Positions 58,282 through 60,779 of a stretch of 64,000 bases of DNA are shown piece after piece. Each line of letters begins with the position of its first letter. Within the stretch, counting starts at the first letter, position 1. The notes under the pieces were generated by a model. That model made no database searches, had not been told where the DNA came from, and worked only from the letters and a program-made list of their open reading frames with translations. This DNA comes from Escherichia coli (GTDB lineage: Bacteria; Pseudomonadota; Gammaproteobacteria; Enterobacterales; Enterobacteriaceae), in NCBI RefSeq assembly GCF_011045215.1, contig NZ_CP049201.1. One strand, given 5' to 3'. The translations under genes were made by a program, and so were the position numbers.

Positions 58282-58578
58282 TTAGTTCATGCCGTATTTT
58301 TTCAATTTTTTACGCAGCGTACCACGGTTGATGCCCATCATCAGCGCAGCACGGGTCTGGTTACCACGGGTGTATTGCATCACCATGTCCAACAGGGGCT
58401 GTTCTACTTCAGCCAGTACCAGCTCATAGAGGTCATTCACATCCTGACCATTCAGTTGAGCAAAATAGTTCTTCAGTGCCTGTTTAACCGAGTCACGCAG
58501 GGGTTTTTGGGTTACCTGATCCTGAGAGTTAACGGTAGAAACGGTCAGTACGTCAGAATTTACGCGTTGTTCGAACAT
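58282..58578 (-). CDS. fis: nucleoid-associated DNA-binding protein Fis
   Basis: 98-aa [48 protein letters not shown]. Confidence 0.98.
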
Positions 58579-58603: not shown

Positions 58604-59569
58604 TTACGCAAAATTTTCGAAGTATGCCTCCAACGCCTCCAGCTGTTCGCTGGCATCCTCAATGGCGTTGAATGTGCGCCGAAACTGGTCATTTGGAGCG
58701 TGTTCCTGGAGATACCAGGAAACGTGTTTACGTGCAATTCGGTACCCTTTTGCCGGACCATAAAAGTCATGCAGTTCCCGAACGTGCGCGCAAAGCAAGC
58801 GCTTAACCTCTGCCAAAGGCAGCGGGGGCAGCAACTCCCCAGTGTCCAGATAATGCTGGATTTCCCGAAAGATCCAGGGTCTTCCCTGAGCTGCGCGGCC
58901 TATCATCAGGGCATCCGCCCCTGTATAGTCGAGCACAGCTCTGGCTTTAAGCGGGTCAGTAATGTCGCCATTCGCGATAACCGGAATGGAAACTTTCTGC
59001 TTAACTGCCCGAATACTGTCGTACTCAGCTTCTCCATTGAACAAACAGGCGCGTGTACGGCCATGAATGGTCAGAGCCTGAATGCCACAGTCTTCAGCCA
59101 GTTGGGCAATCTCTTCGCAGTTACGGTGTTCCGGTGCCCAGCCAGTGCGAATTTTCAGGGTAACAGGAACGTCCACTGCATTGACGACCTCGGTAAGGAT
59201 CGATTTAACGACATCCGGGTACTGCAAGAGGGCTGAACCTGCGAGCTTGCGATTCACTTTTTTAGCCGGGCAACCCATATTGATATCAATAATCTGGGCA
59301 CCGCTTTCCACGTTAATACGTGCTGCATCTGCCATTTCTTTCGGATCGCTACCAGCAATTTGCACGGTGCGAATACCGGGTTCATCAATGTGCACCATCC
59401 GTAAACGAGATTTGTCGCTTTCCCAAACCTGTGGGTTAGAAGACATCATCTCGGATACTGTCAATCCGGCTCCCATCTCGTAGCACAACGTCCGAAAAGG
59501 TCTGTCTGTAATGCCAGCCATGGGCGCTGCGATCAGGCGATTTCTGAGCTGATATTGTCCGATGCGCAT
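58604..59569 (-). CDS. dusB: tRNA-dihydrouridine synthase B
   Basis: 321-aa [32 protein letters not shown], co-operonic with fis. Confidence 0.96.
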
Positions 59570-59897
59570 GAGTTAAGAAATGACCATACTGTGACTGCAA
59601 GGCGGCGTATATTACGCATTTTTTGCACGAGATGAAAGGCCAAACTTTGACCAATCCTCTGAGATGGATCAAAGAATTGCATTTAAAATGAGCGTGGTGC
59701 GATAATTACTCATAAAAATCATCATATTAGAAAATAGTGACTAAAATTTACACTCAAAGAAATTTGAGTAAGTTCTCAATTTTTCTTTATGAATGAAAAT
59801 TTTGGCACGCAAATTTGCGTAAATAATCGGCAAATTTACGTGCCTTTTGTGAGCTTGCTCGCACTTCGCCCCGCGTCACCCTACGGCGATGCGAAGG

Positions 59898-60779
59898 TTA
59901 ATTCTTACGACCGGTAATACGGCACCACTCTTCTTTTTCCACGACCGGGTCCAGTGCGAAGCTGTCGGCATAAGCTTCACAAACGCTCTCTGCCTGGCTT
60001 GCCAGAATACCGGAAAGGCCCAGCAAACCGCCTGAAACCGGCAGGACGCTGATTAACGGTGCCAGTTCACGTAATGGGCCTGCAAGGATGTTAGCGACCA
60101 CCACGTCAGCTTTCATTTCTTCTGGCTGATCTTTCGGTAAGTAGAGTTCCAGACGGTCAGAAACGCCATTACGTTCGGCGTTATCGCGGCTGGCCTGAAT
60201 CGCCTGCGGATCGATATCAATACCAATGGCTTTTGCTGCACCCAGTTTCAGCGCCGCGATCGCCAGAATGCCGGAACCACAGCCAAAGTCGATGACTGTT
60301 TTACCGGTTAAATCGAGGCTGTCGAGCCATTGCAGGCACAGAGAGGTGGTTGGATGGGTACCCGTACCAAACGCCAGCCCTGGATCTAACATCACGTTGA
60401 CGGCGTTTTCGTCCGGCACATCACGCCAGCTAGGGCAGATCCACAGTCGTTCACCAAAGCGCATCGGGTGGAAATTATCCATCCATTCGCGCTCCCAGTC
60501 TTTATCTTCTAGTTGTTCGATTTTATGCGCGAAGCCTGCGCCGAGCAGCGGATGGTTTTCCAGAATCGCCACCACGTCGTTCATATCGGTTTCAGCGTCG
60601 AACAGACCAATCACATCGGTGTCGCCCCACAGGCGCGTTTCGCCCGGCAGCGGCTCAAATACTGGCGTATCGTGGGTATCCTGAAAAGTGATAGAAACGG
60701 CACCCGCTTCCATCAGCGCATCGCTAAGATCTTCCGCGTTCGCGCCGGTGGTGTTCAGTTTCAGTTGGATCCAAGGCAT
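59898..60779 (-). CDS. prmA: ribosomal protein L11 methyltransferase PrmA
   Basis: 293-aa ORF with SAM motif [13 protein letters not shown]. Confidence 0.96.

What the first reader, a model, noticed from the sequence alone, without database searches (positions are those of the whole stretch)
59804..59844. Long imperfect palindrome between prmA and the dusB-fis promoter
ggcacgcaaattt ... aaatttacgtgcc forms a 13-bp stem with one mismatch, contains the self-complementary gcaaatttgc, and is followed by ttttgt on the plus strand. It lies about 55 bp after the prmA stop, roughly 235-275 bp upstream of dusB, and could be a prmA terminator, an insulator, or a binding site in the Fis-autoregulated region.
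Basis: seen in the sequence. Interest (0 to 1): 0.2.

Follow-up and report, generated by a model that had tools for sequence, protein, structure and literature searches.

The report
prmA mRNA 3′-end terminator hairpin
The palindrome is real and encodes the stem-loop where E. coli prmA transcripts end just upstream of the fis promoter region, an ordinary gene-end signal already listed in published 3′-end maps.

Summary
The inverted repeat exists and is longer than reported: 15-nt arms (59830-59844 and 59804-59818), 14/15 complementary, 11-nt loop. prmA, dusB and fis are all on the minus strand. On that sense strand the one mismatch becomes G·U, giving a perfect 15-bp RNA stem (ΔG −23.1 kcal/mol, z −6.2).

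Published 3′-end maps (Bar et al. 2023, PMC10687069) place the primary prmA 3′ terminus at MG1655 3410050/51. That is window 59799/98, 5-6 nt past this stem, in at least three datasets.

It is not a canonical intrinsic terminator. The TTTTGT run is on the wrong strand; the sense tail is AAAAUUUUC. That tail still gives a very weak all-A/U RNA:DNA hybrid, and the downstream RNA is C-poor. I therefore favour weak Rho-independent termination over Rho termination followed by exonuclease trimming, but this is unproven.

The loop also holds a strong Fis-consensus match centred at −222 from fis P. The hairpin sequence is Escherichia-specific. 26% of E. coli genomes carry a U·U mismatch in the stem, and no compensatory changes were seen.

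Verdict: ordinary and already documented; low interest.

The parts
59830..59844 (-). 5' arm of the RNA hairpin in the prmA sense (GGCACGUAAAUUUGC); the promoter-distal arm
   Evidence: This arm carries all stem polymorphisms seen in E. coli: 59841 A>G, 59838 U>C, 59837 A>U or A>G, 59834 U>C.
59819..59829 (-). 11-nt loop (CGAUUAUUUAC)
   Evidence: Polymorphic at 59829 and 59827.
59804..59818 (-). 3' arm of the RNA hairpin (GCAAAUUUGCGUGCC); the promoter-proximal arm
   Evidence: Invariant in all sampled E. coli; one change in E. albertii.
59796..59803 (-). A4U4 tail (AAAAUUUU) holding the mapped prmA mRNA 3' ends. The dominant ends at MG1655 3410050/51 correspond to window 59799/59798.
   Evidence: TRS Supplementary Data 2-4 of PMC10687069. 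The RNA:DNA hybrid is -4.5 kcal/mol, among the weakest 0.8% of 8-mers in the window.
59845..59897 (-). Proximal part of the 100-nt prmA 3' UTR. It includes a GC-rich hairpin without a U tail (arms 59886-59896 and 59864-59874) and the A-tract CACAAAA that abuts the main stem.
   Evidence: (I13), (hypervariable among E. coli). The 3' UTR length of 100 nt is from TRS Supplementary Data 4.
59898..60779 (-). prmA coding sequence (ribosomal protein L11 methyltransferase), the gene whose transcript ends at the hairpin
59817..59831 (.). Fis-consensus 15-mer GCGTAAATAATCGGC centred on the hairpin loop (centre 59824, -222 from the fis P start); a putative distal Fis site
   Evidence: The consensus scan scores it 15/17, a level reached by 0.05% of window 15-mers. 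The control sites at -43 and +24 were recovered. The TSS frame comes from PMC3865300. No footprint could be checked here.

Best explanation
The 41-bp palindrome encodes, on the minus (prmA-sense) strand, a 15-bp stem-loop that forms the 3' end of the panF-prmA messenger.

Shown: the RNA folds strongly, and steady-state prmA transcripts end 5-6 nt after the stem, at the start of the U-run in AAAAUUUU. Coverage drops by about 70-97% there.

Inferred: RNA polymerase stalls on the all-A/U stretch. Completion of the GC-clamped stem then pulls the transcript from the very weak 8-bp A4U4 hybrid. This would be a non-canonical and probably leaky Rho-independent terminator, and the same hairpin protects the finished mRNA from 3' exonucleases. 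I put about 0.5 on this mechanism.

Its role is to stop upstream transcription from running into the growth-phase-controlled dusB-fis promoter region, which begins right at its promoter-proximal arm. The same DNA also carries a good Fis consensus in the loop (-222), so it probably doubles as the most distal Fis site of the fis upstream region.
For: Structure: 15-nt arms, 14/15 complementary, with the mismatch becoming G·U only on the sense strand. Sense ΔG is -23.1 kcal/mol, z -6.2.

RNA 3' ends: peaks at MG1655 3410046-3410064 (dominant 3410050, signal 0.69), 3410045-3410053 (dominant 3410051, signal 0.97, 'Primary prmA') and 3410046-3410056 (dominant 3410050, signal 0.70). The tables print this exact hairpin. 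The 3' UTR is 100 nt.

Field usage: Gerganova et al. 2015 describe 'natural terminators' flanking dusB-fis.

Intrinsic rather than Rho: the tail hybrid AAAAUUUU is -4.5 kcal/mol, among the weakest 0.8% of 8-mers. The 100 nt downstream are 9% C with C/G 0.82, which is poor rut material, and the upstream UTR has C/G 0.83. The base of the stem is GC-rich.

Comparative: orthologous prmA genes in many Gammaproteobacteria are followed by a strong hairpin, with or without a U-tract.

Conservation: within Escherichia the hairpin is far better conserved than the adjacent UTR segment 59845-59897.

Fis site.
Against: There is no U-tract directly after the stem; four A's intervene. A d'Aubenton-Carafa-type score is strongly negative on the sense strand (about -57, against about -10 on the other strand). 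The built-in terminator scan did not call it.

Adams et al.'s own Term-seq peak list has no 3' end here. prmA is weakly expressed: 0.29 read starts per nt, against 3.4 for accC.

1,421 of 5,425 E. coli genomes carry a U·U mismatch in the middle of the stem. No compensatory double substitution exists in the sample.

Polymorphism is confined to the distal arm. The proximal arm is as invariant as the fis regulatory DNA next to it, so the conservation could be DNA-level rather than RNA-level.

Steady-state 3' ends cannot separate termination from trimming.
Confidence: 0.72

Rival explanations
1. The hairpin is only a protective stem-loop. Transcription ends further downstream, by Rho, by collision with protein or RNA polymerase complexes on the fis promoter region, or by RNase E cleavage in the AU-rich spacer. 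3'-to-5' exonucleases (PNPase, RNase II) then trim the RNA back to the hairpin, as Dar & Sorek 2018 described for Rho-dependent transcripts.
For: Dar & Sorek found that Rho-dependent transcripts end immediately after stable stem-loops lacking U-rich tails, and that Rho dependence is commoner in weakly expressed genes. prmA is weakly expressed. The tail is not a canonical U-tract. One dataset shows a broad peak reaching 19 nt past the stem.
Against: The RNA downstream of the hairpin is only 9% C with C/G below 1, and the upstream UTR is G-rich and structured, so no rut-like segment is visible. An A-tract precedes the stem, a feature Dar & Sorek associate with intrinsic rather than Rho-dependent ends. 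The A4U4 hybrid is unusually weak. No Rho termination region was called near it by Adams et al., though the strong fis promoter downstream makes that assay blind here.
Confidence: 0.22
2. The selected function is at the DNA level, as part of the fis upstream regulatory region. The loop is the most distal Fis site, and the proximal arm overlaps an RNA-polymerase-binding or upstream-promoter segment. On this view the RNA hairpin is a by-product, and prmA 3' ends merely collect there.
For: The Fis consensus is 15/17 at -222, alongside recovered control sites at -43 and +24 and further hits at -84, -102 and -144. The proximal arm and everything toward fis P are invariant in E. coli, while the distal arm varies. 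Shimada 2014 picked GTGCCA-18-AAAAAT, whose first hexamer lies in the proximal arm, under an RpoD-holoenzyme SELEX peak. In other genera the homologous block is partly alignable without forming this hairpin. From memory, Ball 1992 and Pratt 1997 footprinted six Fis sites reaching about -220; those papers were not held.
Against: The mismatch is G·U-compatible only on the transcribed strand, and two of the population variants are A>G changes that keep sense-strand pairing. The mapped RNA ends show the hairpin is used as RNA. The predicted Fis site itself is polymorphic at its -3 and -5 positions. A Fis site needs only 15 bp and does not explain 15-bp complementary arms.
Confidence: 0.25
3. It is a bidirectional terminator, or mainly an antisense one. 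Read on the plus strand, the hairpin followed by UUUUGUGAG stops divergent transcripts that start in the fis upstream region (the 'div' promoter of Nasser et al. 2002) before they run antisense into prmA.
For: The plus-strand tail is the more canonical one (nT 3.5, score about -10 against -57). An A-tract on one side and a T-tract on the other is the usual layout of bidirectional terminators. Cameron 2013 cites at least five start sites in the E. coli fis region.
Against: The plus-strand RNA stem has a C·A mismatch and is weaker (-19.4 kcal/mol, z -3.05), and the A>G population variants add further C·A mismatches on that strand. The TRS files contain no terminus at MG1655 340999x/341000x on the opposite strand. 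Adams 2021 lists none either. The paper describing the div promoter could not be read.
Confidence: 0.1
4. It is a pair of operators for a dimeric transcription factor. The 14-bp perfect palindrome ACGCAAATTTGCGT and its near-copy 21 bp away (two helical turns) would be two binding sites, and the long hairpin is just the consequence of two palindromic sites side by side.
For: Direct repeat D2 has 21-bp spacing, and there is a perfect 14-bp palindrome. The half-sites equal PurR-box half-sites, ACGCAAA / TTTGCGT (from memory).
Against: The central CG that LacI/PurR-family hinge helices require is missing, so the half-site spacing is 2 bp too short. The second copy is the polymorphic arm. The motif is not conserved outside Escherichia. 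No further copies occur in the window.
Confidence: 0.03

Closest known systems
Rho-independent (intrinsic) transcription terminators of E. coli
   Same: It has a stable stem-loop with a GC-rich base just after an operon end, an upstream A-tract, and a weak A/U-only RNA:DNA hybrid after the stem. RNA 3' ends map a few nucleotides past the stem.
   Different: There is no contiguous U-tract adjacent to the stem; the tail is AAAAUUUUC. The stem is unusually long (15 bp) and AU-rich, and the loop is large (11 nt). Classical scoring functions reject it.
Protective 3' stem-loops of Rho-dependent transcripts (Dar & Sorek 2018, PMC6061677)
   Same: It is a stable hairpin not followed by a proper U-tract, it defines a precise steady-state 3' end, and the gene is weakly expressed.
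   Different: An A-tract precedes the stem and there is no C-over-G enrichment downstream (9% C). Rho dependence is untested.
Distal Fis binding sites of the fis (dusB-fis) promoter upstream region (Ball 1992; Pratt 1997; cited from memory)
   Same: It contains a 15-bp G-N13-C element with an A/T core at -222, in register with other consensus hits that match the promoter's known Fis-site layout.
   Different: A Fis site needs no long inverted repeat. The footprint was not verifiable here, and the site is polymorphic in E. coli.
Bidirectional terminators between convergent or neighbouring units (Ju et al. 2019, cited from memory)
   Same: It is a symmetric hairpin flanked by an A-run on one side and a T-run on the other.
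   Different: The flanking genes are co-directional, and no opposite-strand 3' ends have been found.

Membership tests
Intrinsic (Rho-independent) terminator | Stable, GC-containing RNA stem-loop on the transcribed strand just downstream of a gene or operon end | tested here: met
   15-bp stem, ΔG -21.6 to -23.1 kcal/mol, z -6.2, with 5 of the 6 basal pairs G-C. It starts 54 nt after the prmA stop.
Intrinsic (Rho-independent) terminator | U-rich tract of about 7-8 nt immediately following the stem | tested here: not met
   The sense tail is AAAAUUUUCAUUC. The T-weighted tail score is 0.46 and the discriminant about -57. The built-in scan did not call it. However, the 8-nt hybrid is all A/U and very weak (-4.5 kcal/mol).
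Intrinsic (Rho-independent) terminator | Transcript 3' ends a few nucleotides downstream of the stem in vivo | tested here: met
   Published tables give dominant ends at MG1655 3410050/51, 5-6 nt past the stem, in three datasets.
Intrinsic (Rho-independent) terminator | Release without Rho (purified RNA polymerase in vitro; insensitive to bicyclomycin) | not testable with these tools
   No in vitro or bicyclomycin data for this site could be found. The Adams 2021 Rho list has nothing here, but the assay is blind next to the strong fis promoter.
Protective stem-loop of a Rho-dependent transcript | Stable hairpin at the steady-state 3' end without a U-rich tail and without an upstream A-tract | tested here: inconclusive
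   A hairpin at the 3' end is present. The tail has four displaced U's, and an upstream CACAAAA A-tract is present.
Protective stem-loop of a Rho-dependent transcript | C-over-G (rut-like) RNA immediately downstream | tested here: not met
   The 100 nt downstream contain 9 C and 11 G, with GC 0.20.
Protective stem-loop of a Rho-dependent transcript | Longer 3' tails in pnp/rnb mutants and read-through with bicyclomycin | not testable with these tools
   The Dar & Sorek supplementary tables are not held.
Fis binding site | 15-bp G-N13-C with an A/T-rich core and A(-3)/T(+3) | tested here: met
   GCGTAAATAATCGGC at 59817-59831 scores 15/17, in the top 0.05% of the window. The control sites at -43 and +24 were recovered. 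The consensus weights were recalled from Shao 2008 / Stella 2010.
Fis binding site | Protection by Fis in footprinting, or occupancy in vivo at this position | not testable with these tools
   The primary papers (Ball 1992, Pratt 1997, Nasser 2002, Hengen 1997) are not held. ChIP resolution would not separate -222 from -43.
Structured RNA family (Rfam) | Match to a curated covariance model at its gathering score | tested here: not met
   The only hits are generic hairpin matches to miRNA models, far below threshold (best 27 bits against a gathering score of 80).
Repeated extragenic palindrome or other dispersed repeat | Multiple copies per genome | tested here: not met
   There is one place per genome in 5,425 E. 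coli genomes and no other copy in the window.

The most novel reading that the evidence does not exclude
This may be a dual-use element that arose within Escherichia. The same 41 bp would be both the prmA terminator (as RNA) and the outermost Fis site of the fis upstream region (as DNA). Fis occupancy, or supercoiling-driven cruciform extrusion of the AT-rich palindrome, would then tune how much panF-prmA transcription leaks into the dusB-fis promoter, coupling upstream read-through to growth phase. The common U·U allele (26% of genomes) would be a natural variant of that leak.
Probability: 0.08. Interest if true: 0.4.

Novelty: already known. Interest (0 to 1): 0.1.

Why it matters
It matters little beyond annotation. 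The finding fixes the 3' boundary of the panF-prmA transcription unit, giving a 100-nt 3' UTR. It also shows that the fis upstream regulatory region abuts, and partly overlaps, the upstream gene's terminator.

This is useful when designing fis promoter constructs. Fragments cut at about -200 remove the terminator and the putative distal Fis site, while fragments reaching about -300 include them.

It is also a clean example of a 3'-end hairpin with a displaced U-run (A4U4) that classical terminator finders miss.

Tried and rejected
- **Rfam scan:** only spurious miRNA-like hairpin hits.
- **Built-in terminator and promoter scan:** missed the element because its loop limit is 8 nt. Its two 'terminator' calls lie in the fis core promoter and are false positives.
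- **Term-seq peak lists:** Adams 2021 and TERMITe have no entry here. Supplements for Dar & Sorek 2018, Choe 2022 and Grünberger 2022 are not held.
- **Primary papers not held:** those on the fis promoter (Nasser 2002, Pratt 1997, Ball 1992, Ninnemann 1992, Hengen 1997), Peters 2012 and Thomason 2015. The footprinted Fis-site positions and the 'div' promoter are therefore cited from memory only.
- **Full-text search for the sequence itself:** nothing found.
- **Covariation test on Escherichia variants:** uninformative. There is too little divergence and no double changes.
- **Cross-genus structural conservation:** the hairpin sequence is not conserved outside Escherichia, so no covariance model was built.
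- **PurR/LacI-family operator idea:** rejected. The central CG is missing, the motif is not conserved, and the second copy is polymorphic.
- **Dispersed-repeat idea:** rejected, because the element is single-copy.
- **Dps binding to inverted repeats at the fis locus (PMC5553809):** Dps binding there was seen in only one of two experiments and at low resolution, so it was not pursued.

Full report
**Context.** The window is Escherichia coli. ORF listing and BLAST against 5,426 complete E. coli genomes identify prmA (60779..59898), dusB (59569..58604) and fis (58578..58282), all on the minus strand. The window's minus strand is the MG1655 plus strand, so MG1655 coordinate = 3409951 + (59898 − window coordinate). 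The palindrome is MG1655 3410005-3410045. Cameron et al. 2013 (PMC3865300) give 296 bp between the prmA stop and the dusB-fis start site. That puts the start site at about 59602 and the palindrome at −202 to −242.

**Observation.** The inverted repeat is real and slightly longer than described: arms 59804-59818 and 59830-59844, 15 nt each, 14/15 complementary, with an 11-nt loop. The left arm holds a perfect 14-bp palindrome, ACGCAAATTTGCGT. Strand matters. On the prmA-sense RNA the single C/A mismatch becomes a G·U pair, giving 15 uninterrupted pairs (ΔG −23.1 kcal/mol, z −6.2, 0 of 200 shuffles as good). The plus-strand RNA keeps a mismatch (−19.4 kcal/mol, z −3.05). In a sliding 45-nt fold of the whole window on both strands, it ranks 15th of 84 strong local structures and has the lowest GC content among the top ones. 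It is single-copy and matches no Rfam family.

**What it is.** The decisive evidence is published. Bar, Argaman, Eldar and Margalit 2023 (PMC10687069) list a 3' terminus on the MG1655 plus strand in three datasets:
- peak 3410046-3410064, dominant 3410050, signal 0.69;
- peak 3410045-3410053, dominant 3410051, signal 0.97, annotated 'Primary prmA';
- peak 3410046-3410056, dominant 3410050, signal 0.70, in their own LB RNAtag-seq data.

The last row prints the folded sequence CAAAAGGCACGUAAAUUUGCCGAUUAUUUACGCAAAUUUGCGUGCCAAAAUU (−23.1 kcal/mol), a maximum U-run of 4 and a 100-nt 3' UTR. Their signal approaches 0 for full read-through. Judging by sheet order, the first row comes from Barsheshet RNAtag-seq data and the second probably from the re-analysed Dar & Sorek Term-seq data. 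That assignment is inferred, not verified. In window coordinates, prmA transcripts end at 59799/59798, 5-6 nt past the stem. Gerganova et al. 2015 also speak of 'natural terminators' flanking dusB-fis. Adams et al.'s own Term-seq peak list has no entry between 3405373 and 3410852. This is most simply explained by low prmA expression: 0.29 read starts per nt, against 3.4 for accC and 6.0 for fis.

**Mechanism.** In the prmA sense it is the A-tract CACAAAA that precedes the stem, and the tail is AAAAUUUUCAUUC. Classical scoring rejects the sense strand (T-weighted tail 0.46, discriminant about −57) and is borderline for the opposite strand (about −10). Three features nevertheless favour Rho-independent release:
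- The 8-nt hybrid AAAAUUUU is all A/U, at −4.5 kcal/mol with nearest-neighbour values recalled from Sugimoto 1995. That is weaker than 99.2% of 8-mers in the window, and weaker than the plus-strand tail.
- The base of the stem is GC-rich, and an A-tract lies upstream.
- The RNA on either side is poor rut material: 9% C and C/G 0.82 in the 100 nt downstream, and C/G 0.83 in the structured upstream UTR.

The alternative is termination further downstream followed by PNPase/RNase II trimming back to the hairpin, as Dar & Sorek showed for Rho-dependent transcripts that end at U-less stem-loops. It fits the displaced U-run, the low expression and one broad peak, and it cannot be excluded from steady-state ends. 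My split is about 0.5 intrinsic (weak or leaky), about 0.22 trimming after Rho, roadblock or RNase E, and the remainder other or mixed. No opposite-strand 3' end is reported at the hairpin, so the antisense or bidirectional reading has no support beyond sequence.

**DNA-level overlap.** I scanned the intergenic region with the Fis consensus, using weights recalled from the literature. The scan recovers the two sites Cameron et al. say flank the start site, at −43 (score 15.5) and +24 (score 13). It also gives hits at −144, −84 and −102. The loop of the palindrome, GCGTAAATAATCGGC, is centred at 59824 (−222) and scores 15/17, a level reached by 0.05% of window 15-mers. The palindrome therefore very likely also contains the outermost Fis site.

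**Evolution.** Across nine Enterobacteriaceae, the core fis promoter is nearly invariant but the hairpin sequence is confined to Escherichia. Other genera have partly alignable sequence there that does not form this stem, and they have other hairpins after prmA, some canonical terminators and some U-less.

Within 5,425 E. coli genomes the exact 91-nt haplotype counts are:
- window / K-12 haplotype: 2,670;
- an allele with A>U at 59837, creating a U·U mismatch in mid-stem: 1,421 (ΔG −17.8 kcal/mol);
- two A>G alleles that keep pairing as G·U on the sense strand only: 140 and 40.

All stem polymorphisms lie in the promoter-distal arm. The proximal arm is invariant, like the fis regulatory DNA next to it, while the UTR segment 59845-59897 is hypervariable. 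A formal pair count gives 97.8% paired cells, no double compensatory change, three one-sided changes and three unpaired cells. This is evidence neither for nor against RNA-level selection.

**Verdict.** The element is an ordinary, non-canonical gene-end hairpin that overlaps the distal edge of the fis regulatory region. It is already present in published tables, so novelty is nil and interest is low.

Noticed in passing
window 59848-59863: A CRP-like palindrome, TGTGAGCTTGCTCGCA, matches TGTGA-N6-TCACA at 9 of 10 positions; only 4 such matches occur in the 64 kb. It sits immediately next to the hairpin. Its half-sites are invariant in E. coli while the 6-bp spacer varies. It is found at a nearly fixed distance from fis P (centre -254 to -256) in Escherichia, Citrobacter, Enterobacter, Klebsiella sp. 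and Superficieibacter. This holds even in E. cloacae, where it lies 910 nt from the prmA stop. It is better conserved than the hairpin, and I do not know it from the literature.
   Followed up: partly
window 59864-59896: A second, GC-rich hairpin lies directly after the prmA stop (11-nt arms, 82% complementary, no U tail). This segment is hypervariable among E. coli strains, with nearly half its positions differing in one divergent strain.
   Followed up: partly
window 59807-59820 and 59828-59841: A perfect 14-bp palindrome, ACGCAAATTTGCGT, has half-sites equal to those of the PurR box but lacks the central CG. A near-copy lies 21 bp away (two helical turns). It is probably incidental to the hairpin.
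   Followed up: partly
window 59837: This stem position is tri-allelic in E. coli. On the sense strand it is A in the K-12 type (49% of genomes), U in 26% (giving a U·U mismatch; I judged this class B2-like but did not check its phylogroup) and G in 2.6% (giving G·U).
   Followed up: yes
window 59779-59808: Shimada et al. 2014 list an RpoD-holoenzyme SELEX peak in the prmA-dusB spacer with the picked promoter GTGCCA-18-AAAAAT. Its first hexamer lies in the hairpin's promoter-proximal arm. It may correspond to one of the upstream tandem promoters reported for fis.
   Followed up: no
window 59540-59760: Fis-consensus hits at -144, -102, -84, -43 and +24, and an IHF-like AATCATCATATTA at 59717-59729 (about -121), reproduce the known architecture of the fis promoter. 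The two 'terminator-like' hits of the simple scan (59652-59638 on the minus strand and 59605-59617 on the plus strand) fall on Fis site II with the -35 element and on the -10 element, and are false positives.
   Followed up: partly
L006 and L007 (Enterobacter cloacae, Enterobacter sp. BIGb0383), upstream of dusB: The prmA-dusB spacer is about 1.2 kb in these species, against about 330-370 bp in most Enterobacteriaceae. This recalls the 628-bp spacer that Cameron et al. reported for Salmonella. The content of the insert was not examined.
   Followed up: no
window 59789-59917 (+): A 42-codon plus-strand ORF starts at an ATG just before the hairpin and runs antisense into the prmA 3' end. No support was found for it, and it is probably spurious.
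   Followed up: no
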